Shown: positions 1 to 47,675, counted from the first letter of the stretch. The stretch is 54,832 nucleotides of DNA from Candidatus Paceibacter sp. (GCA_020725175.1 DYFM01000010.1:1-54832); one strand, 5' to 3'. Notes: generated by a model from the letters alone, not told the origin. A program made the numbers and translations.

Positions 1-15
1 TAGAAACATACCAGA

Positions 16-550
16 ATCTACAAAAGTAGAAATTGAATATATGTATTAGAGAATGATAGAGTTTGCTCATATCTCTCGTATCTACAAAAGTAGAAATTGA
101 ATATATGTATTAGAGATAAATTTTGTATTTTGCTGATCGAAATCTACAAAAGTAGAAATTGAATATATGTATTAGAGATAATTTCACTAGCACGGTGAGA
201 AGTATCTACAAAAGTAGAAATTGAATATATGTATTAGAGTTGGGTGGCTGATTTCTGCTCCAAAAATCTACAAAAGTAGAAATTGAATATATGTATTAGA
301 GGTGGCAATAATTTTTCCCGTTTTACATCTACAAAAGTAGAAATTGAATATATGTATTAGAGCTAATGCAGTATGCACTGGTATGTCTTATCTACAAAAG
401 TAGAAATTGAATATATGTATTAGAGTAACGTCAGGTAAAAAAACTACTTTCAATCTACAAAAGTAGAAATTGAATATATGTATTAGAGAATATGGGATAC
501 GAATACTTGATCAAATCTACAAAAGTAGAAATTGAATATATGTATTAGAG
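16..550 (-). CRISPR. Type V-A CRISPR array: 9 identical 36-nt repeats (minus strand CTCTAATACATATATTCAATTTCTACTTTTGTAGAT) with 8 complete 25-28 nt spacers; probably continues beyond the window start
   Basis: Repeats start at 16, 80, 142, 204, 266, 327, 390, 453, 515; the 3' end AATTTCTAC-TTTT-GTAGAT is the canonical Cas12a handle; next to cas2. Confidence 0.99.
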
Positions 551-711
551 AGCTGAAATGGCTAAAATAAGCGCAAAAGATGCAAATCTTGCGCAAAAGG
601 CAAAGACGACTTTTTTGCTTATTTTAGCACAATTCATAAAAATTATATAAAGGTTTTTCTCTAATCTATACATAGAAACTTCTACATTTCTATAAATAAA
701 TTGTAAAGATC
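551..711 (-). promoter_or_regulatory. CRISPR leader
   Basis: AT-rich noncoding gap between the cas2 stop and the first repeat; TATAAT on the minus strand at 642-647. Confidence 0.8.
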
Positions 712-2497: not shown

Positions 2498-5400
2498 TTA
2501 TTGTTTTCGTTTTAAATTTTTTTCATTTTTCTTTATCCAATTTTCCCAAATCTCTCTACCCGCCAACCACGCACTCCATTCTTCATCAGATATAAACAAG
2601 CTCAAATCCCTTTTGATATGCTCACACATAATAATTCCTTTTCGTGCGATATTGTATGCACCATTAGCGTCACCAGAGGTTGGAAGATTTAAATTTATCT
2701 TTCTGGAATCAAAATGGTTTCCGTTTTTATCTCGTACGGGGGAAAGAATAAAGTCAGCGTCTTCTTCTGTTTTACCTGAATTTCTGATCTGCTGAATTAA
2801 ATCAATTACAAAACGCAGAGACTCCCATGAGGTGCGATCATTGATTTTATTTGGATTTTTTCCTTGTCTCAGTTGTTCAAGTAGTGATTTCTCTTTGTCA
2901 AAACCTTCAAATAAGCCATCAAGGATTTTCTTTAAATTTTGTTCTTTTGGAACCCATTTTTTATCACTGTTCTCATGCACCAATTCTCTGTAATATCTAT
3001 CTAAACTTTCTCCGTCTTTACCAGAATATAGTTCCCATGGTTTATTGGTATTTCTATCAGTATATTTAAAGTAGTAGTCTTTACCATCAAATTTAATATC
3101 GTCGAAGTTATCCAATATCTGTTTTTTAATACTTTCTTCAGAACCTTTTTTCAGATAGATAGTTTTTCTCCAGCCGGTAACAGGGTCTGTCTGTGACGTA
3201 TAATCAGCTTTAGTGTAAAACATAATCCCAAACTGCTTTTTACCCTCAATATCACCAAAATTATTTACGAGCGGAGTTAACTGCAAGGCAGAAGTTACCG
3301 AGCCAATTTCTCCTTCTTTAGCATGTTTATCAACAAGAAAATTTAACTTCTTTGCGAGAGCTAATTCAAGTTTTTGATATACTTGTTTTTCAATCTTTTG
3401 TCTACCACGCTTGAATCCGATATTCAAATCTTCCAAAACTATAAAGGCAGGAGTTTCTCTGAATACTTTCTTTTCAACATCCTCGTAAATAGCAAGATCA
3501 ACAATTTTTCGCACAACTTGAGAGATGTAGCCATCTTTCAATTCCTTTATGGTACCAATGGTTTTCCAGTTCTTTCGCGCCTCGTCACGATTTCCTGCCA
3601 TTTTCTCAAGTTTTTCAGCATAATTTTGTCCATTGATTTCATTGAAGCTGCCTTGATCTAAAGTTTCAATTTTTCCGTCTTTTGTTTGTTTGACAACAAA
3701 GTAGTACGCAAGATGTTTTTCACCGCGATCAATACCGATGGTAGTAATATCATCATTTAATTTAACCATGCTTTCATTGATTTCATCATTAAACTTTAAA
3801 GATCTCAAACAGAAATTTAAAGTTATAGGGCAATGAAAAACAAATTTTTCATTTGCGAAACGTTTATGCTCTAAAACTTCTTTGCCACTTTTGTCTTTTT
3901 TCTTCCCCAATTTTTCTTTCAATCTTATTTCGAACTCCTTATCTGTCTCATTTTCTTTTTTCTTTAAGATAGTTTTTCGATAAAAAATTTCAGCTTCACC
4001 ATTTAATTTCGGCTTATTAGCAACATCACCAAAAATTTCATTCCAATAAATAGTGTGTAAATTTTTTTCACTTGTTTTTTCTTTCCCTTCTTTTAAATTA
4101 TTATCTTTATTACGAATCTCAAAAAAGTATATTTCACCGTTTTCAACTGCCTCGTTAATTAATTTTTTACTAATAATATTCCATGAAAGTTTATACCCCT
4201 GTTTCTCAACTTCATTATAAAATTGATCAATACTCTCAAATTTTTCAGTTGGTGAAAAATTAAAGCCAAACAAATCCTGCCACGATTTTTCTGCTGATGG
4301 GTATACTTTTAGACCTTCTTTGTAGAAATCGATGATCTTCCACAGTTTTTCTTTTGTGAATGACGGTTGATTTTTCTTAAACCCACCTTCATCATAAATT
4401 GATAAGATATCGTCAGTCGCTCCAAATTCTTTGCGGTTACGCTTTGGTAACAAAACTTTTGGTAACATCTTATTCGGACCTGGTAAAAGTTTATAGTCCA
4501 TCTTTAAATAATTTTCATCTGTTACAACTTCTTTATATTTTGCCTTTTCGCCAAAAAGTTTTTGTGATGCTTTGGTTAAAATTGCTAAATACTTTTTCTC
4601 ACCATCTTTTAAAATTAAGCACCACCGTTCAGGCTCTTTATTTACATCCCAACCACCACCTAAGACAGAATTATCAAAATTCAACTTTAACTTATTTAGC
4701 CCTTCCTGAGGTCTTTTAGTTAAATAATTTCGAATAATGTCGTAAAACTTTGTTGGATTATTATCGCCAAACAAAATCGCTTTCAAACTTTCCGCCAATA
4801 TTGGATCAACCGCAAATTTGTCTTTTACTTTCCAGTACTTCACAATTTGATTTACATATAAAGCACTATCCAAAAGCATCTTAATATTTTCTATATGTTC
4901 AGGTTTTTTAAAATCTGTCGTTATGGATAAAACCTTTGGTGACAGCTCACTAAAATCTTTTGCCATTTTCTCCACATCAGCAAAAATCATCCCAAGCAAT
5001 GCCTTGCTAGGTTTTTCAGCTCGTTCAATTATTCCTTTCTTGTTACCCTCACCATCAAAAAGCGATGTCTTAAAAAGTCCATCTTCCTTATTTTTCCATT
5101 TTTCTGTTTTATCTAAAATTTCAAACAAATTTTTCAGCTCTACGGCTTGAGGAATTTTAATATCCTCATCGTCTTTTTTCTTCCCGCCAAACACACCACC
5201 TTCTTTAAGGGCTTTTTTCAAGATAAACCAATTTGCAAAATACTTTCCTGAAATTGTATTCAATGCTTTGTCACTCCAAAAAATGCCCTCAAAACTTTCG
5301 TGGTTTATAATATAGTGGACAAACTCACCTACTGTATCAACTTTGTCTTCAATCTTTCCATCAAATTGTCCAAAATATTTTTCACCATTTTCTACAACAT

Positions 5401-7389: not shown

Positions 7390-7466
7390 TAGTGGAATGA
7401 CGAACGCCAGTTCGTCAAAGAATAGAACACCTACCTTGTGGCGAACTGACGTTCGTCACTCCACTA
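7390..7466. repeat. REPIN-like inverted doublet
   Basis: About 28-nt arms (TAGTGGAATGACGAACGCCAGTTCGTCA and its near reverse complement, 3 differences), each with an internal palindrome. Confidence 0.8.
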
Positions 7467-7475
7467 ACACAAAAA

Positions 7476-7575
7476 CATTCGCATAATTCGCATCATTCCC
7501 CGCCCAAGGCGGGTCCGCCTTGGGCGGAGCATGTTCGTAGTTCGTATGTTCGTACTTACTGTTCGTACGTTCGAA
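7476..7575. repeat. Degenerate (A/G)TTCGYA short tandem run with a nested 30-nt double hairpin (7499-7528)
   Basis: ATTCGCAT/GTTCGTA units interrupted by CCCGCCCAAGGCGGG-TCCGCCTTGGGCGGA. Confidence 0.75.
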
Positions 7576-7595
7576 CATAATTTGCCTTCTAACCC

Positions 7596-8393
7596 ATGAA
7601 CAACTCTCTCCTCCCCCTGAAGGAATTTCTGTTATCTCTCGATCTGCCGGAAAAAGAAGTCAATGTCTATCTGGTACTCTTGACTATGGGAAAGGGAACC
7701 GTATCAGAAATCACTCGCCAAGCCGGACTCAATCGTACTACGGGCTATGATATCTTGAACAAACTGATCGACTACGGCCTGGTGAGTATTTCCGGCAAAG
7801 AACCAAAGCAGGAATATGTCGCCGAATCACCCGACAACATTATCAAACTACTTGAGGAACGAAAAAAACGCACACAAGTACTTCTCAAACAAGCCAAACA
7901 AAAACTTCCGGAATTGAAATCAATTCACAATGTGAGTGATCGCCCAAGAGTTCGATTTTATGAAGGAAAACAAGGACTAGAAGATGTATATGAAGACACG
8001 CTGACTGCCAAAGAAACCATTCGCGCCTACGCCACGGTAGACGACATGCACGCCGCGCTCCCGGATTATTTTCCAAAATACTATCAACGCCGCGCCAAAA
8101 AACACATCAACATTCGAGCTATTATTCCTAGCACCGACATTGGTCAAGAGCGAGCCAGCAAAGACAAAGAAGAAGCCCGAGAGACAGCCCTCATACCACC
8201 AGACAAATATTATTTCTCCCCCGAAATAAACATCTATGACAACAAAGTCATGATTGCCTCCTGGCGAGAAAAACTCGGGATCATTATTGAAAGCGCCGAA
8301 ATTGCTGATGCCATGAAGAAGATTTACGAGCTGGCCTGGGCGGAGGCGAAACGACTTGACGAAATACAACGAAATGACGAAACGTCGAAATAG
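7596..8393 (+). CDS. TrmB-family transcriptional regulator
   Basis: N-terminal wHTH (EVNVYL...RTTGYDILNKLIDYGLV), VRFYEGKQGL, C-terminal EINIYDNKV...IIIES. Confidence 0.88.
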   Translation: MNNSLLPLKEFLLSLDLPEKEVNVYLVLLTMGKGTVSEITRQAGLNRTTGYDILNKLIDYGLVSISGKEPKQEYVAESPDNIIKLLEERKKRTQVLLKQAKQKLPELKSIHNVSDRPRVRFYEGKQGLEDVYEDTLTAKETIRAYATVDDMHAALPDYFPKYYQRRAKKHINIRAIIPSTDIGQERASKDKEEARETALIPPDKYYFSPEINIYDNKVMIASWREKLGIIIESAEIADAMKKIYELAWAEAKRLDEIQRNDETSK

Positions 8394-8477
8394 AGAAATA
8401 ACGAAATAGGGAAATAGCTCCGCCCCCACTCTAGGTGGGCAGGCAAGGCGGACTCGTCTGGGTCGATGAAATAATGA
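8387..8477 (+). repeat. Dispersed ~90-nt composite element, copy 1
   Basis: GAAATA octamer run enclosing a GC-rich palindrome; near-identical reverse-complement copy at 34040-34125. Confidence 0.85.
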
Positions 8478-8488
8478 AGTACGTGTGT

Positions 8489-8591
8489 CAGATAACAGAT
8501 AGCAAATAGCAGATATCAGTATTGATTGTAGTTTGACCAAGAAGAGTATATATCTGTTATCTGTTATCTGTTATCTGTTATCTGTTATCTG
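8489..8591. repeat. Mirror heptamer array
   Basis: (CAGATAA)-like x4 at 8489-8515 facing (TATCTGT)x5 plus a partial unit at 8551-8591. Confidence 0.9.
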
Positions 8592-8709
8592 AAATTGGTT
8601 AGATATTAGAAATTAGATGAATTAGAAATTACCCCGCCTCCATCTTTTCTCCCCAGAGAAACTGTGGTACAATACCCCCATTCTTACGCTTAATGAACGA
8701 CCACTTGTT

Positions 8710-16973: not shown

Positions 16974-18416
16974 ATGACCACTACACGCAATATTGCCCAC
17001 AACACAATAATACAGATTGGTGGTAAAGCTATTTCTACCCTGCTCGGGCTGGCAGCGGTTTTTTTGTTGACTCGATATTTAGGACCGGAAAAATTTGGCT
17101 GGTATAGCACTGTTATCATCTTTCTCCAGTTTATCGGTATACTGACCGACTTTGGATTAACTCCGGTGACATCACAAATGCTCAGCAAACCCGGAGTCGA
17201 TAAAGTAACACTACTTAAAAATCTGCTCGGTTTTCGTCTAGTAACGGCAGTGGTTGGCTTTGGTATTGCGCCGTTACTTGTGTTGTTGTTCCCCTATCCT
17301 GCTGAAGTAAAGCAGGCGGTCAGTTTTACCACTATCTCTTTTTTAGCCATTGCTCTCAACCAAGTGTTCATGGGGTTTTACCAAACGCAGCTCAAGATGT
17401 ACATCGAGGTCATTGGTGAAGTGCTCGGAAGAATTGTCTTGGTAGCAGGGTTATGGTTCCTCGGAATCTACGGTGCGTCCTTTTTACCCATGATGGGAAT
17501 GATTACCCTCGGCAGCGTAGTATATACCGCCTATGTTTGGTGGAAAGCGCGTAGCCTGAGCCCGATCGGATTTGCGTACAACAAAGAAATCTGGAAAGAA
17601 ATCAGTCTCACCATGTGGCCAATTGCCGTTGCGATTGTATTTAATACCATTTATTTAAAAGGCGACGCGTACCTACTTACTTGGTACCGCTCGCAAGAAG
17701 AAGTTGGTTTTTATAATCTCAGTTATCGAGTCATCGACATTGTAACGCAAGTTGCGATGATGACTATGGGAATACTCCTTCCACTGCTTTCTTACGCCTG
17801 GAACAGAAATCTCAAAGAAGAATTTAAAAAACGATATCAACAAGCCTTTGATACCATGATGCTGATCGGGCTTCCTTCATCAATCGCTATTGGCGTACTC
17901 GCCAAACACGCTATTTTAACCATCAGTGGTCAAGAATACTTACCAGCGGTAGCTCCGCTTCAAATATTATCATTGGCTATTTTTGGCTTATATCTCGGCG
18001 CGGTATTTGGTCACGCCGTTGTTGCGATTAATAAACAAAAGGTTGTACTGTGGGTGTATTTCTCCAATGCAGTTATCACACTTCTTGGGTACCTCTTAGT
18101 TATCCCAAAGTACGGAATGATTGGAGCGGCCTGGATGACAGTATTTTCCGAACTCTATGCCGGTGTTGGTCTGTATCTTGTCGTTCGTCAAACCACCAAG
18201 GAAAAATTACAAGTTCGATCATTTGCCAAGATGCTCTTTGCCGCGATTGTTATGGGGTGCATCTTGTTTCTCTTCCGTGATTTACATCTCATTCTCCTCC
18301 TCCCTCTTGGCGCAGCCGTCTACTTCTTTTTTGTGTACGGTCTTGGCGTGATATCAAAAGAAACATTGCAGGAAATTTTCTCTCTTCGTAACAAAGCATC
18401 TGACACCACTGTATGA
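16974..18416 (+). CDS. Polysaccharide flippase (Wzx/RfbX-like)
   Basis: LTRYLGPEKFG, DFGL, VGFYN, YGMIGAAW; many TM helices. Confidence 0.9.
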   Translation: MTTTRNIAHNTIIQIGGKAISTLLGLAAVFLLTRYLGPEKFGWYSTVIIFLQFIGILTDFGLTPVTSQMLSKPGVDKVTLLKNLLGFRLVTAVVGFGIAPLLVLLFPYPAEVKQAVSFTTISFLAIALNQVFMGFYQTQLKMYIEVIGEVLGRIVLVAGLWFLGIYGASFLPMMGMITLGSVVYTAYVWWKARSLSPIGFAYNKEIWKEISLTMWPIAVAIVFNTIYLKGDAYLLTWYRSQEEVGFYNLSYRVIDIVTQVAMMTMGILLPLLSYAWNRNLKEEFKKRYQQAFDTMMLIGLPSSIAIGVLAKHAILTISGQEYLPAVAPLQILSLAIFGLYLGAVFGHAVVAINKQKVVLWVYFSNAVITLLGYLLVIPKYGMIGAAWMTVFSELYAGVGLYLVVRQTTKEKLQVRSFAKMLFAAIVMGCILFLFRDLHLILLLPLGAAVYFFFVYGLGVISKETLQEIFSLRNKASDTTV

Positions 18417-19846
18417 TTTTTATTTTTATCATCTTGCTCTTCTTATTTTTCCTTATTTCTTGGAAAAATCTCGTGTGGGGTCTTGCTGTTTTTTTTACAC
18501 TTCTCCCTACGTACCTTATTCGGTTTCACATTGGACCAATACCAACCACATTTTTGGAAATACTGTTTTGGATTCTATTTTTTGTTTGGATCACAAAGCA
18601 AACGAAACAGGGCTCCCTCATTTCAAATGTCAAATTACATTTCTCCAAGCACCCAACACTCTTCCTTGCGCTTTCTCTCTTTCTCGCTGGCGCAACAATG
18701 GCTATTTTTTTCTCATCCAATCTTCGTTCAGCTCTTGGTGAGTGGAAAGCATTTTACATTGAACCAGTATTACTTTTTTTTATTCTTATTCAAACGATCA
18801 AAACAAAACAGCAAGTCCATCTTATCCTTAAAGGAATCCTCTTCTCAGGTTTCATCACCGCACTTCTCGCAATCTACCAACACTTCACCGGCTGGCTCGT
18901 ACCGCACGCCTTCTGGGCAAATCGAAATACGTATCGTGTCACCGCTTGGTATGGATTTCCAAATGCGGTTGGATTATTCCTCGGACCATTGGTACCCTTG
19001 GCACTTTACTTACTGACTGAGCGCTGGAAAAAGATTCAAGAAACAAGTTACAAGAAACAAGCAAATCTCAATCATAAAAGTCCAAATCTCAATTGGCTGT
19101 GGAAATTAGAAATTGGAAATTGGAAATTGTTTGTTTCTTGTGTCTTGTATCTTGGAATATTATCTGCACTCATTCTAGCCATCATTTACGCAAAATCAAC
19201 CGGCACTCTGATCGGTATCGCAGCCGGAACTGGTATCCTTCTTCTCTTTTATAAAAAAACTCGTTGGCCGGCAGTACTACTTGGTCTCGCCGGGCTTGTT
19301 GTTTTATTTATTCTCCCGGCAAATAATCCAATAAAGGCAGAGCTTCTCGCCCAGGATCGCTCTGGGCAAATTCGTATCCAAATGTGGGGTGAAACAGTAG
19401 AATTATTATCTGACTATCCAATTACTGGTGCCGGATTGGCTTCGTATTCTGAAAAAATTGCCCCTTACCACACCCCGGTAAATGGTGAGCGAATTGAGAT
19501 CTTTCATCATCCGCACAATATCTTCATGACGATGTGGGTAAATGTAGGATTGTTGGGATTGGTCGGATTTATGTGGGTGCTGGTATTTTTTTATAGACTT
19601 GGAGTACATCTCTGGAAATTGAAAATTGGAAATTGTCAGCCCAAGGCTGATCCGCCTTGGGCGGAGAAATTAGGGATTTTCCTGATGAGTAGTATGACGG
19701 TAATTCTGGTGAGTGGACTGGTCGATTCGCCGTATATCAAAAATGATTTGGCGATGTTGTTTTGGTTGATAGTGGGATTGATGGTTGTGTCTTCTTCACA
19801 AACAGTACAACCATACAAGCTAAAGAAGTATACCATTTCAGAGTAA
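18413..19846 (+). CDS. O-antigen ligase family (Wzy_C/WaaL-like) protein carrying two in-frame repeat insertions
   Basis: RVTAWYGFPNA, R..MW, PITGAG, HPHNIF motifs; multi-TM. Confidence 0.88.
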   Translation: MIFIFIILLFLFFLISWKNLVWGLAVFFTLLPTYLIRFHIGPIPTTFLEILFWILFFVWITKQTKQGSLISNVKLHFSKHPTLFLALSLFLAGATMAIFFSSNLRSALGEWKAFYIEPVLLFFILIQTIKTKQQVHLILKGILFSGFITALLAIYQHFTGWLVPHAFWANRNTYRVTAWYGFPNAVGLFLGPLVPLALYLLTERWKKIQETSYKKQANLNHKSPNLNWLWKLEIGNWKLFVSCVLYLGILSALILAIIYAKSTGTLIGIAAGTGILLLFYKKTRWPAVLLGLAGLVVLFILPANNPIKAELLAQDRSGQIRIQMWGETVELLSDYPITGAGLASYSEKIAPYHTPVNGERIEIFHHPHNIFMTMWVNVGLLGLVGFMWVLVFFYRLGVHLWKLKIGNCQPKADPPWAEKLGIFLMSSMTVILVSGLVDSPYIKNDLAMLFWLIVGLMVVSSSQTVQPYKLKKYTISE

Positions 19847-19902
19847 CACAAAAGCGTTCAATTTTTTTCAGTACACTTTTTTTCTTTGTAAAATGTTTAA
19901 GT

Positions 19903-20316
19903 ATGAAAGAAAGAAAAAAATCGGTTGGTTGTTTTTTAACCCACAATAACACTTTTCTTATAATGCATCGAACATCTCATTCCTACGGCGGAGCAAAGTG
20001 GGGACTGGTTGGTGGAAAAGTAGAAATAAATGAAGATCCCAGACAGTCAGTCATCCGCGAAATTTCTGAAGAGACAGGAATACATGTCCAAGAACACGAA
20101 CCGGTGTTTATTGCTGAAACGATTCTTGAATATCCTGATGTTAAATGGAAATTTTCCCTCTTTCGATTGCCATTTGTGGAAAGACCTACAATTATTCTTG
20201 ATACAAAAGAACACCAAGCGTTTCAGTGGGTGACCAAAGAGGAAGCCAATGCTCGAGAAGATCTTATGCCGGGACTGTATGTATTGTTGGAGAGGTTCGA
20301 GAATCAGGTCTTCTAA
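19903..20316 (+). CDS. NUDIX hydrolase
   Basis: GGKVEINEDPRQSVIREISEETG Nudix box. Confidence 0.92.
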   Translation: MKERKKSVGCFLTHNNTFLIMHRTSHSYGGAKWGLVGGKVEINEDPRQSVIREISEETGIHVQEHEPVFIAETILEYPDVKWKFSLFRLPFVERPTIILDTKEHQAFQWVTKEEANAREDLMPGLYVLLERFENQVF

Positions 20317-21810: not shown

Positions 21811-21890
21811 GGAATAACTCACGACCCGCAGGGAGTGAGCTAGAAAGAACGTGCATTTCAACTCACTCCCTGCGGGTCGTGAGTTGTTCC
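21811..21890. repeat. REPIN-like 29-bp hairpin
   Basis: GGAATAACTCACGACCCGCAGGGAGTGAG and its reverse complement with 1 difference; 22-nt loop. Confidence 0.9.
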
Positions 21891-24837: not shown

Positions 24838-24849
24838 ATATAATTGTTA

Positions 24850-24979
24850 AAATCTTAAGATACAAGATACAATTTCCAAACAAATTATAAAAAACAATTT
24901 CTAAGTTCCAAAACGAATTGGAAATTATGTATTATTTAGTAGATTTTGCTTGGAAATTGTATCTTGCGATTTGGAAATT
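24850..24979. repeat. About 130-nt palindromic element (CAAGATACAAG family)
   Basis: CAAGATACAATTTCCAA...TTGGAAATTGTATCTTG inverted arms; relatives at 19033, 27978, 28663, 47175. Confidence 0.8.
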
Positions 24980-25233
24980 AAAAAACCCCGACAACACACT
25001 GAATTTCTTCAATACATTCTCGGGGTCATTTTTGCTCGCATGTTCGTACAGTTCGTACGTTCTCACATAATGACGGTTCCACCCGTTATTTTACTTGTTT
25101 GAATTTGTACATCGTGTCTCGTTTGAGATATACAAGTGGTACCATACGGATTCTTTTGAAGAAAGCTCTCAGTCTTTGGCTTTCTCTCCCTTGGCAAAAG
25201 CGGGCCGCTGGGCTCGTTTGTATGTCACGATGT
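24980..25233 (-). ncRNA. T-box riboswitch (Thr, ACC specifier) upstream of thrS
   Basis: Stem I ACATCGTG/CACGATGT with AG-rich bulge and ACTGAGA distal loop; ACC-A candidate specifier at 25140-25137; T-box GGGTGGAACCGTCA pairing with TGACCC; terminator with U6. Confidence 0.85.
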
Positions 25234-27897: not shown

Positions 27898-27977
27898 ACA
27901 ATGTTACAGTTAATTACCTTTACAGTTCGATTGAGAAGCTCCTTGGAAAGGACAATCTTCTGTAGGTTTGAGAAATA

Positions 27978-28099
27978 AATCCCAAGATACAAGCTACAAA
28001 TTCCAAACAAATCTTAATGAACAATTTCCAACCAGTTTTGGAGCTTGTAATTTATTATTTGGAATTTGTTTATGCCTTGTTTCTTGTATCTTGGGATTT
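27978..28099. repeat. About 120-nt palindromic element (CAAGATACAAG family)
   Basis: 17-bp perfect terminal inverted repeats AAATCCCAAGATACAAG/CTTGTATCTTGGGATTT plus inner pairing. Confidence 0.9.
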
Positions 28100-28106
28100 A
28101 AAACAC

Positions 28107-28652: not shown

Positions 28653-28747
28653 ACAATTGAAAAGTTCCAAATTCCACCATACAAGTTCCAAAAGCTATGT
28701 TCGCCTCAGTAAAGTGTATTTGGAAACGTGAAGTTATGAATTGGAAA

Positions 28748-28927
28748 TTATATGATTTGTGTCAGTCCCCAGTTGAGAATATAGTCGAGAATTCCAAAGA
28801 AGATCGCCACTCCGAGACTGAGTGCGATGACGACTATAGAATAGTTGATCACCTGTTTTTTGGTTGGCCAGGTGACTTTTTTCATTTCTCCCACTGAATC
28901 ACGGACGTACGTAATGAGCTTGTTCAT
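28748..28927 (-). CDS. secE: Preprotein translocase SecE (59 aa; not in the ORF track)
   Basis: Manual translation MNKLITYVRDSVGEMKKVTWPTKKQVINYSIVVIALSLGVAIFFGILDYILNWGLTQII; upstream of nusG. Confidence 0.95.
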   Translation of the reverse strand: MNKLITYVRDSVGEMKKVTWPTKKQVINYSIVVIALSLGVAIFFGILDYILNWGLTQII

Positions 28928-40592: not shown

Positions 40593-40663
40593 ACAAAATA
40601 TGACAGGCTAAATATGCCGATAGTATACTGGAAAATGTGCTAAATCGCAAGGAACACTGCAAC

Positions 40664-40731
40664 AGTTGGCAAGTTGACAAGTTGGCAAGTTAGCAAGTTA
40701 GCAGGTTGGCAAGTTAGTAAGTTAACAAGTT
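40664..40731. repeat. Octamer tandem repeat GTTRRCAA x8
   Basis: GTTGGCAA GTTGACAA GTTGGCAA GTTAGCAA GTTAGCAG GTTGGCAA GTTAGTAA GTTAACAA. Confidence 0.9.
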
Positions 40732-40846
40732 AATTATTTAACAATATAGCAATATAACATACAACAATTCAACAAGATAACAATTCAGCAATATACTAAT
40801 GAAACAATACCCTAACTACCAAAACCACCACAACACCTACTATTCT

Positions 40847-47164: not shown

Positions 47165-47675
47165 GATTGAATTATTTCCAAATCCCAGGATACAAGTTCC
47201 AAGGATAAAGTGGCGGAATTATACTATATTTGGTGATTTTGTCAAGGGGTGGTGCGGCGTATTTCCTCTTGTTATTTCCGTGGTTTTTCTTTATACTTAA
47301 GGTGCTTTTGAGTACTTTGATGTGGAACCATACAGGGTTATGGTTACACGTTTTTATGAAAATAGTGGCTTATTTTAGCAAAATTTTTTAGAGGTTCGTA
47401 TATAAGGAGTTATATGACATACATTTTTACAATTTGATATTTTTTCACTCTGCTTTTTTTGAATAAGGAATTATATAATAAGATTTTTCATTATTTAATG
47501 AGGGGGATAAAGCGGTATTTTTACTCCGTTCCTCCGCAAAAATGATTATTTGATAAGGGGGAAATAATCATTTTCTCCGCTATCGCTCCGAAAATGATTA
47601 TTTAATTTAAGTAGGAAAATTAAATAAAATTAGTATATTATAAACACAAGATTTTAACAGATAAAAAACTTTTCT

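What the first reader, a model, noticed from the sequence alone, without database searches (positions are those of the whole stretch)
19033..19158. Palindromic intergenic element translated in-frame inside the O-antigen ligase
Seen: about 126 nt with ~32-nt inverted arms (CAAGAAACAAG...CTTGTATCTTG) and GGAAATT heptamers, the same family as intergenic copies at 24850-24979, 27978-28099, 28663-28750 and a half copy at 47175-47205. It reads without stops as IQETSYKKQANLNHKSPNLNWLWKLEIGNWKLFVSCVLYLG between TM helices. Known precedent: Rickettsia palindromic elements in coding sequences. Inference: repeat-derived new protein sequence, or a segment removed at RNA level.
Basis: partly seen in the sequence, partly recalled or inferred. 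Interest (0 to 1): 0.75.

Follow-up and report, generated by a model that had tools for sequence, protein, structure and literature searches.

The report
Palindromic repeat translated inside membrane-protein gene
A 126-base hairpin-forming DNA repeat that normally sits between genes of this ultra-small (Patescibacteria) bacterium lies in frame inside a cell-envelope enzyme gene, where it appears to be read as 42 extra amino acids, including about half of a membrane-spanning helix, much like the palindromic elements known from Rickettsia.

Summary
Window 19033-19158 is a full copy of a dispersed ~128-nt palindromic repeat. A profile built from 9 other copies finds exactly these coordinates (E 1.1e-17). 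It lies in frame in a 477-aa Wzy_C (O-antigen-ligase family) gene. Among 57 distinct orthologues with DNA, the stretch holding it is 86 aa here against a median of 61 and a minimum of 52. The closest relative (69% identical) and one other genus carry the same element at the same loop and in the same frame.

The structure model puts the purine-rich 5' arm in a polar extension of one helix, the centre in a low-confidence loop and the T-rich 3' arm in the first ~10 residues of the next membrane helix. Removing the 42 aa would leave 44 aa, fewer than any orthologue has, so removal at RNA level is unlikely. No RNA data exist to test that directly.

The same gene holds a second, nested repeat insert (19613-19679), and uvrA holds a half copy of the first family. 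This is an RPE-like in-frame repeat in a new lineage: a new member of a known kind. This scan has already reported the same kind of event on other DNA of this genome (recG, aspS) and in other Patescibacteria.

The parts
18413..19846 (+). Host gene: 477-aa Wzy_C / O-antigen-ligase-family membrane protein. Its start overlaps the stop of an upstream Polysacc_synt (flippase-type) gene.
   Evidence: ORF. Pfam PF04932, E 3.3e-21, residues 251-387. 496 homologues at E<=0.001. Upstream gene PF01943.
19033..19158 (+). In-frame full copy of the ~128-nt palindromic repeat ('family 1'), covering codons 208-249.
   Evidence: Leave-one-out nhmmer E 1.1e-17. Fold z -4.8. 0 stops in the used frame and 1-3 in the other five.
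19037..19072 (+). Purine-rich 5' arm with CAAGAAA-type heptamers. It encodes a polar peptide (mean Kyte-Doolittle -1.66) that extends helix 193-218.
19119..19154 (+). T-rich 3' arm. It encodes a 10-residue hydrophobic peptide (mean hydropathy +2.26), the N-terminal part of model helix 234-259.
19100..19129 (+). (TGGAAAT)x4.3 heptamer array in the centre and 3' part of the element.
   Evidence: TRF.
19613..19679 (+). Second repeat-derived stretch in the same gene (about residues 401-423). GGAAATT-type words are split by a GC-rich double hairpin. It lies in the loop between model helices 370-405 and 415-437.
19636..19666 (+). GC-rich double hairpin (arms 19637-19649 and 19652-19664). It corresponds to 11 aa (33 nt) absent from the closest homologue P0002. 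The same peptide in the same frame occurs in recG.
   Evidence: (D10).
24849..24980 (.). Intergenic full copy of family 1.
27976..28100 (.). Intergenic full copy of family 1.
28662..28763 (.). Weak, degenerate family-1-like stretch.
   Evidence: nhmmer E 0.44; direct-repeat family D5.
47174..47208 (.). 35-nt fragment resembling one terminus of family 1.
   Evidence: Inverted match, 86%, to 24944-24978 (I10). Not found by the profile.
7495..7529 (.). Intergenic copy of the GC-rich double hairpin, flanked by 7/8-mer arrays.
   Evidence: (D10, I11).

Best explanation
Window 19033-19158 is a copy of a non-coding, hairpin-forming dispersed repeat, similar in kind to REPIN, MITE and RPE elements. 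Its arms are built from tandem 7-base words. It became lodged in the part of a Wzy_C-family gene that encodes the loop before a membrane helix, a loop I infer to be cytoplasmic.

It is transcribed and translated with the gene. In the structure model, the purine-rich 5' arm gives a Lys/Gln/Thr-rich extension of the preceding helix, the centre gives a flexible loop, and the complementary T-rich 3' arm gives a hydrophobic run that now serves as roughly the first half of the next membrane helix. Because the arms are complementary, either orientation reads polar first and hydrophobic second. That suits a loop-to-membrane-helix junction.

The insertion is old. It is at least as old as the split from a 69%-identical relative, and possibly shared with another genus.

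Shown: family membership, the open frame, its absence from most orthologues, and its position in the model. Inferred: translation, cytoplasmic topology, the mode of spread, and the co-option of the 3' arm.
For: 1. Family membership. The leave-one-out profile scores E 1.1e-17 at exactly 19033-19158. There are 23 merged family loci in the genome at E<=1e-3, mostly outside long frames. In two other genera, 0 of 12 copies examined lie inside frames of >=100 aa.

2. Extra relative to orthologues. The distance from the WYGFPN motif to the AKSTG motif is 86 aa here. Among 57 distinct orthologues it has median 61 and minimum 52, and 11 of 57 are >=68. The 10 other rows of the tree group that holds the window gene and P0002 have 52-61 aa.

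3. Read through. The used frame has no stop, whereas only 9 of 66 frames of 11 other copies are open and 1.1% of shuffles are open. The conserved Wzy_C domain (residues 251-387) lies downstream in the same frame.

4. Structure. The AF2 model (mean pLDDT 81.9) has helix 193-218, coil 219-233 (block pLDDT 57) and helix 234-259. Arm hydropathies are -1.66 and +2.26.

5. The same element in relatives. P0002 (sister, support 100) has an element-like peptide at the same site. The G007 orthologue's loop matches the family profile at E 3e-11, in the same frame and register. The AU test does not reject one clade for these three (p 0.267 on 31 rows).

6. A second in-frame copy of the family. uvrA holds the purine-rich half only, as a 25-aa insert relative to PDB 9ga5.

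7. Not an assembly artefact. Contigs of two studies span 18300-19656 with no differences and no joint.
Against: There is no RNA or protein evidence: no RNA run is listed. Cytoplasmic topology rests on my own reasoning from positive-inside charges and the position of the large conserved loop, not on a tool.

No target-site duplication is visible, and no enzyme could be tied to the family, so 'mobile' is inferred from the dispersed copies alone.

On the free gene tree the G007 copy sits far from the window's gene, and long versus short loops need at least 14 changes on 77 rows. One old insertion with many losses, recurrent insertion, and gene conversion therefore cannot be told apart.

The strong hairpin (z about -5) is unexpected for an old, merely tolerated insert. 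The G007 copy has decayed to z -1.2.
Confidence: 0.8

Rival explanations
1. The hairpin is more than a tolerated passenger. It, or its 7-base words, are kept at this loop for a function in cis, such as an mRNA structure that slows the ribosome while upstream helices insert, a binding array for a word-reading protein, or a target for ongoing repeat-directed gene conversion.
For: Three of 57 orthologues keep strong hairpins in this loop (z <= -4). Two of them (L002, L042) share a run of about 31 identical bases of GGAAACT words, while windowed nucleotide identity across the two genes is 0.46-0.82. In L002 the complementary arm carries matching AGTTTC-type words. Four separate loops of this gene family hold variable word-like inserts.
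Against: 54 of 57 orthologues have no strong hairpin there, and the median loop is short, so no structure is generally required. The G007 copy of the same element has decayed (z -1.2). No Rfam family, promoter-like site or terminator-like site lies in the element. Recent re-insertion or gene conversion explains the identical arrays equally well.
Confidence: 0.12
2. The element is removed before translation, either excised from the mRNA or deleted from the DNA in expressing cells, so the protein lacks the 42 residues.
For: Only the long hairpin itself, which could in principle be a processing signal.
Against: Removal leaves 44 aa between the two motifs, below the minimum of 52 in 57 orthologues, and leaves only about 11 hydrophobic residues for the next membrane helix (and direct reading). 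The used frame is specifically free of stops, unlike other copies. No contig in 4 DNA runs joins across the element. On general knowledge, hairpin excision from rRNA intervening sequences does not rejoin the ends.
Confidence: 0.03
3. The loop is native low-complexity coding sequence, and its likeness to intergenic repeats is convergence of composition, or the gene segment is the source of the family.
For: A control case gives reason for care. The word-like stretch that TRF flagged in pgk proved to be a protein segment conserved in relatives with non-word DNA.
Against: The match covers the whole 126 nt with both termini and both arms. 46 of 57 orthologues have 52-67 aa there. The family has dozens of extragenic copies in at least three genera.
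Confidence: 0.03
4. The gene is dead or the region is mis-assembled.
For: None found.
Against: The frame is full length and the window protein carries every invariant residue of the 35-sequence alignment. The model is confident (pTM 0.86). Independent contigs agree.
Confidence: 0.02

Closest known systems
Rickettsia palindromic elements (RPEs). I saw passages in the review PMC10969869 and in PMC3733652. The original Ogata et al. 2000 paper was not read.
   Same: Palindromic repeats of ~100-150 bp, with copies both between genes and in frame inside functional genes, where they add a peptide. The host is a reduced-genome bacterium.
   Different: The lineage is unrelated (Patescibacteria). The arms are built from tandem 7-base words. 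Most copies are extragenic, with only 2 clear intragenic copies of this family here. The insert supplies part of a membrane helix rather than a surface loop. Sequence likeness to RPEs was not tested.
Intragenic REPs, and TIR repeats around tyrosine-transposase genes ('TIRtrons'). Di Nocera et al. 2013, PMC3733652, passages read.
   Same: Small palindromic repeats that are mainly extragenic but are also found inside genes, notably uvrA, uvrB and other repair genes. Some Y1 transposase genes lie between long inverted repeats that also form gene-less families. Here one family-1 copy encloses a Y1 transposase gene.
   Different: There is no GTAG or CGTC tag at the arm ends (read directly). The enclosed gene scores as IS200-type, not RAYT, and has its own end hairpins. 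The one clear RAYT in the genome (C29) is flanked by a different palindrome, as is a weaker RAYT-like gene (C6).
Bacterial MITEs that give in-frame fusions (ERIC, BOX and others, as listed in the review PMC10969869; passages read).
   Same: The size, the terminal inverted repeats, the lack of coding capacity, and occasional in-frame read-through.
   Different: No target-site duplication is seen and no parent IS with the same ends was found.
Ssn (GIY-YIG) single-strand nucleases and their hairpin repeats. Chenal et al. 2025, PMC11893778; abstract and one section read. This is relevant only to the GC-rich double hairpin at 19636-19666.
   Same: A short hairpin repeat in many copies. In this genome one copy lies about 15 nt upstream of a GIY-YIG gene (C14:2097-2124 versus 2140-2352) and another lies within about 350 nt of two such genes on C21.
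   Different: Likeness of this hairpin to the published motif was not tested. The hairpin lies near only 3 of the 6 GIY-YIG matches (C14:2140-2352 and the two on C21), and one of the 6, a 441-aa frame, is probably uvrC (my guess).
Heptanucleotide tandem repeats (STRR) of cyanobacteria. No paper on them was found in the library, so the name is recalled, not checked.
   Same: Tandem 7-base units that can pair into hairpins between genes.
   Different: Here the words form a defined ~128-nt element with conserved termini, and the element is translated.

Membership tests
Rickettsia palindromic elements (RPE) | Palindromic dispersed repeat of ~100-150 bp | tested here: met
   126-132 nt copies; arms 36 nt, 81% complementary.
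Rickettsia palindromic elements (RPE) | In-frame insertion in an otherwise intact gene | tested here: met
Rickettsia palindromic elements (RPE) | Sequence homology to RPE-1 to RPE-10, and a host in Rickettsia | not tested
   No RPE sequence was at hand. The nearest homologues of the host gene are from Candidatus Magasanikbacteria / Patescibacteria MAGs, so this is an analogue, not a member.
MITE | Terminal inverted repeats, 70-300 bp, no coding capacity | tested here: met
   Other copies have 1-4 stops in most frames.
MITE | Target-site duplication flanking the copies | tested here: not met
   An alignment of 12 copies with 25-nt flanks shows no recurring direct repeat at the borders (by eye).
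MITE | Parent insertion sequence with the same termini | tested here: inconclusive
   One copy (C21:2721-2778 and 3418-3486) encloses an IS200-type gene that has its own end hairpins. It is more likely an IS200 landed in the loop than a parent element.
REP / REPIN-RAYT | REP unit tagged by GTAG (or CGTC) at one end | tested here: not met
   The consensus termini seen carry no such tag.
REP / REPIN-RAYT | A RAYT gene flanked by the same repeat | tested here: not met
   The genome has 4 Y1 genes. The only one over the RAYT cut-off (C29, 111 bits) and a weaker RAYT-like one (C6, 37.5 bits, under the cut-off of 80) are flanked by other palindromes. The gene between family-1 arms is IS200-type: NF033573 at 139.6 bits, RAYT model at 32 bits against a cut-off of 80.
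REP / REPIN-RAYT | Predominantly extragenic inverted doublets that form a long hairpin | tested here: met
Wzy_C / O-antigen ligase family (host gene) | Match to PF04932 above the curated cut-off; multi-helix membrane protein | tested here: met
   76.1 bits against a cut-off of 31.7. The model is almost wholly helical, with 23 helices and 4 short strands. The substrate and the real function in a bacterium of this group were not tested.

The most novel reading that the evidence does not exclude
A selfish palindrome has been co-opted as structure: its 3' arm now encodes about half of a transmembrane helix. The loops of this envelope enzyme that I infer to be cytoplasmic are being rewritten again and again across Patescibacteria by a small, clade-wide vocabulary of 7-base words, through repeat-directed gene conversion or a word-specific single-strand nuclease or transposase system. 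On this reading the repeats act as a standing generator of new protein segments rather than as one-off accidents.
Probability: 0.22. Interest if true: 0.7.

Novelty: new member of a known kind. Interest (0 to 1): 0.45.

Why it matters
It extends the Rickettsia phenomenon of selfish palindromic DNA becoming protein sequence to the candidate phyla radiation. I found no paper describing it there.

It also shows a case where the repeat supplies part of a membrane helix rather than a floppy loop. The simple rule seen here is that complementary arms read as a polar peptide followed by a hydrophobic one. That rule predicts where such elements can survive in membrane proteins (loop-to-helix junctions) and why soluble proteins keep only the purine-rich half, as in uvrA.

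In practice, such inserts inflate and distort alignments and gene trees of Patescibacteria proteins, and they break assemblies: contigs end at the GC-rich hairpin.

Tried and rejected
- Peptide search. I searched 5.8 billion proteins with the 42-aa peptide (longer proteins allowed). Only the window's own protein was returned, from a single candidate. This is weak evidence either way.
- RNA evidence. No RNA holder is listed. Four DNA runs were laid; contigs cannot show transcripts.
- AU test on the full 77-row tree. It did not finish in two runs of 288 s each. I replaced it with a 31-row subset. The tested group was named after I had seen the tree.
- Rfam. The only match is a chance-level microRNA-precursor hairpin, 24 bits against a gathering score of 211. 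The element has no promoter-like or terminator-like site.
- RAYT link. I considered it and dropped it for this family.
- pgk as a further example. The word-like 8 aa that are extra relative to PDB 3uwd have an aligned stretch of the same length in all 15 relatives aligned, with a closely similar peptide in 3 of them encoded by non-word DNA. My motif missed 15 of the 30 loci. It is therefore not evidence of a repeat insertion, and it warns that my permissive TRF census holds false positives.
- Target-site duplications. None were seen.
- Dating the insertion with the DNA of P0002. This was not possible because its contig could not be fetched.

Full report
WHAT IS THERE

The window is a whole 54.8-kb contig (C20) of a 1.24-Mb, 33-contig genome. 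The ORF 18413-19846(+) encodes a 477-aa protein with a Wzy_C / O-antigen-ligase domain (PF04932, E 3.3e-21, residues 251-387). Its best homologues carry names of Candidatus Magasanikbacteria / Patescibacteria MAGs. Its start overlaps the end of a Polysacc_synt (flippase-type) gene, and a NUDIX gene follows.

Inside this ORF, 19033-19158 is a long imperfect palindrome:
- The arms are 19037-19072 and 19119-19154: 36 nt, 81% complementary.
- Folded as RNA it reaches -42.8 kcal/mol, z -4.8, with 0 of 200 shuffles as good.
- It holds heptamer arrays, (CAAGAAA)x3.6 and (TGGAAAT)x4.3.

IT IS A MEMBER OF A DISPERSED FAMILY

A profile of the three window copies finds 23 merged loci in the genome at E<=1e-3. 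A profile built from nine other copies, leaving the ligase copy out, finds C20:19033-19158 at E 1.1e-17 over model positions 3-127 of 129. BLAST with intergenic copy 27974-28102 finds it at E 9e-7.

Aligned copies share both termini and show no flanking direct repeat. Six of the 23 loci lie wholly inside some stop-to-stop frame of >=90 aa. Only two of those frames are long: the 480-aa ligase frame and a 910-aa frame. The other four loci lie in frames of 90-238 aa that I did not test.

The 910-aa frame is uvrA (Pfam). It holds the purine-rich half of the element (E 1.4e-9) as a 25-aa insert relative to solved UvrA 9ga5.

The family also occurs in 10 of the 40 relatives searched, 11 of 41 genomes counting this one (19 matches in G012, 11 in G007, 7 in G004). 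Of 15 regions fetched from G012 and G007, 12 gave a profile hit, and 0 of those 12 lie inside a frame of >=100 aa.

ORTHOLOGUES

I measured the stretch between two conserved motifs that bracket the loop in 70 loci, which gave 57 distinct orthologues after dropping 12 identical duplicates and one mis-parsed locus. Another 40 of the 110 loci failed my motif filter; these are the more distant ones. The window's protein has 86 aa. The median is 61 and the minimum 52. Eleven of 57 have >=68 aa, and 3 of 57 have a strong hairpin in the loop DNA (z <= -4: the window, L002, L042).

The closest homologue, P0002 (69% identical over the tree's columns, 68% by BLASTP), has an element-like peptide at the same place. 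The G007 orthologue's loop matches the family profile (E 3e-11) in the same frame and register, but its hairpin has decayed (z -1.2).

On a quick tree of 77 rows, the window gene and P0002 are sisters (support 100). The 77 rows are the 57 orthologues plus 20 metagenome proteins that I picked from the top of the hit list, which favours long loops. The pair sits inside a group whose 10 other rows have 52-61 aa. G007 sits elsewhere, and long versus short loops need at least 14 changes. A 31-row AU test does not reject a clade of the window gene, P0002 and G007 (p 0.267; the group was named after I had seen the tree).

So the insertion predates the split from P0002. Whether the G007 copy is the same event, and how much of the scatter is loss, re-insertion or gene conversion, stays open. 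G012 has many family copies but a short ligase loop of 54 aa, so a genome can hold the family and still have this site empty.

WHAT THE INSERT ENCODES

The AF2 model (mean pLDDT 81.9, pTM 0.86) has helix 193-218, coil 219-233 and helix 234-259. The 10-residue pLDDT blocks from residue 201 to 250 read 89, 77, 57, 69, 91. The 5' arm (mean hydropathy -1.66) extends the first helix. The centre is the low-confidence loop. The 3' arm (+2.26) is the first ~10 residues of the second helix.

Short-loop orthologues have about 18-20 hydrophobic residues before the second motif. Without the 3'-arm residues the window's protein would have about 11 (my reading). Deleting the 42 aa leaves 44 aa, below the minimum of 52. 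Either the insertion came with a small deletion, or the native helix start was lost later. Either way the repeat-derived residues now look structural.

From the positive-inside rule and the position of the large conserved loop (residues ~301-369), I infer that this loop and the second insertion site are cytoplasmic. No tool tested this.

WHY I THINK IT IS TRANSLATED

- The used frame has no stop, while the other five frames of this copy have 1-3 stops. Only 9 of 66 frames of 11 other copies are open, and 1.1% of shuffles give an open frame.
- The conserved domain lies downstream in the same frame.
- uvrA, a soluble protein, keeps only the purine-rich (polar) half.
- Elsewhere in the genome, 11 of 11 AACAAGG-type heptamer arrays inside long ORFs have the purine-rich strand as the coding strand.
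- No contig in four DNA runs joins across the element.

There is no direct RNA or protein evidence.

A SECOND INSERT IN THE SAME GENE

At 19613-19679, GGAAATT-type words are split by a 31-nt GC-rich double hairpin. The hairpin corresponds to 11 aa that P0002 lacks at that spot. The same peptide, in the same frame and with the same flanking words, occurs in recG.

In the genome this hairpin is usually flanked by direct 7-10-nt repeats or word arrays. One copy lies just upstream of a GIY-YIG gene.

CONTEXT

The genome holds 240 period-7/8 arrays at a permissive threshold: 144 between crude ORFs, 55 at ORF edges and 41 inside ORFs. They draw on a small vocabulary of about a dozen words. The 41 arrays inside ORFs include those in 30 host ORFs of >=150 aa. 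The 19 of these hosts that I tested, plus uvrA, all have Pfam domains (20 of 20): aminoacyl-tRNA synthetases, PolA, UvrA/B, RecG, SMC, DnaX, IscS, TsaD, PGK and glycosyltransferases.

The census overcounts. The pgk case proved to be a conserved protein segment, not a repeat insert.

One family-1 copy encloses an IS200-type transposase gene that has its own end hairpins. The genome's one clear RAYT gene (C29) and a weaker RAYT-like gene (C6) carry other palindromes.

COMPARISON AND NOVELTY

In-frame palindromic repeats are known from Rickettsia (RPEs), and intragenic REPs are known in several phyla, often in uvrA and uvrB (passages of PMC10969869 and PMC3733652). This element works like them. 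It is not shown to be a member of any named family: it has no GTAG/CGTC tag, no matching RAYT and no target-site duplication.

Four searches found no paper describing such inserts in Patescibacteria. This scan has, however, reported the same kind of event before, on other DNA of this genome (recG, aspS) and in other Patescibacteria, including a Wzy-like gene.

VERDICT

'Repeat-derived protein sequence' is right, and 'removed at RNA level' is unlikely. It is a new member of a known kind, with two features of note: the membrane-helix contribution and the polar-then-hydrophobic rule.

Noticed in passing
window 15-553: A CRISPR-like array at the contig start: 9 copies of a ~36-40-nt repeat at 61-64-nt spacing.
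   Followed up: no
L131:122-887 (G000:C21:2721-3486): An IS200-type Y1 transposase gene (146 aa, NF033573 at 139.6 bits) with its own small GC end hairpins sits at the apex of a family-1 palindrome, between the 5' arm and the 3' arm. Either the IS landed in the hairpin loop or this is a TIRtron-like unit.
   Followed up: partly
L133:249-794 (G000:C29, just after ileS) and L134:84-644: Two RAYT-like genes (the first over the NCBIfam RAYT cut-off, the second under it), each flanked by its own GC-rich REP-like palindromes that are unrelated to family 1.
   Followed up: partly
whole genome G000: 240 tandem arrays of period 7 or 8 at a permissive TRF threshold, drawn from about a dozen recurring words (AAATAACG-type 53 arrays, AACTTGCC-type 19, AACAAGG-type 19). 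The AACAAGG type lies mostly inside ORFs (13 of 19) and, in the 11 arrays in ORFs of >=150 aa, always with the purine-rich strand coding.
   Followed up: partly
window 7400-7640 and 8360-8620; G000:C33:86960-87260: Composite intergenic structures: the GC-rich double hairpin sits inside or between 7/8-mer arrays, often with the same word on both sides, like a 7-10-nt duplication. This hints that the hairpin inserts into arrays or that its insertion creates them.
   Followed up: partly
G000:C14:2097-2352 and C21:440-1336: GC-rich double hairpins next to small GIY-YIG nuclease genes (about 15 nt upstream at C14). This recalls Ssn nucleases and their hairpin motifs.
   Followed up: partly
alignment A1, columns 95-130, 185-235, 310-360, 530-575: Four loops of this protein family that I infer to be cytoplasmic carry variable, often word-like inserts in different lineages. 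The loops I infer to be periplasmic are almost invariant.
   Followed up: partly
window 19762-20316; protein P0002: A NUDIX gene overlaps the 3' end of the ligase gene. In the closest homologue (605 aa) the ligase and the NUDIX domain form one frame.
   Followed up: no
window 19628-19671: Logan contigs of all four runs end or branch at the GC-rich hairpin, and depth rises about 3-4-fold there and over the GGAAATT words. These repeats fragment assemblies.
   Followed up: no
window 21811-21890 and 40649-40760: A further 40-nt-arm hairpin with no spacer (85% complementary), and a (GTTGGCAA)n 8-mer array of about 10 units. Neither was examined.
   Followed up: no
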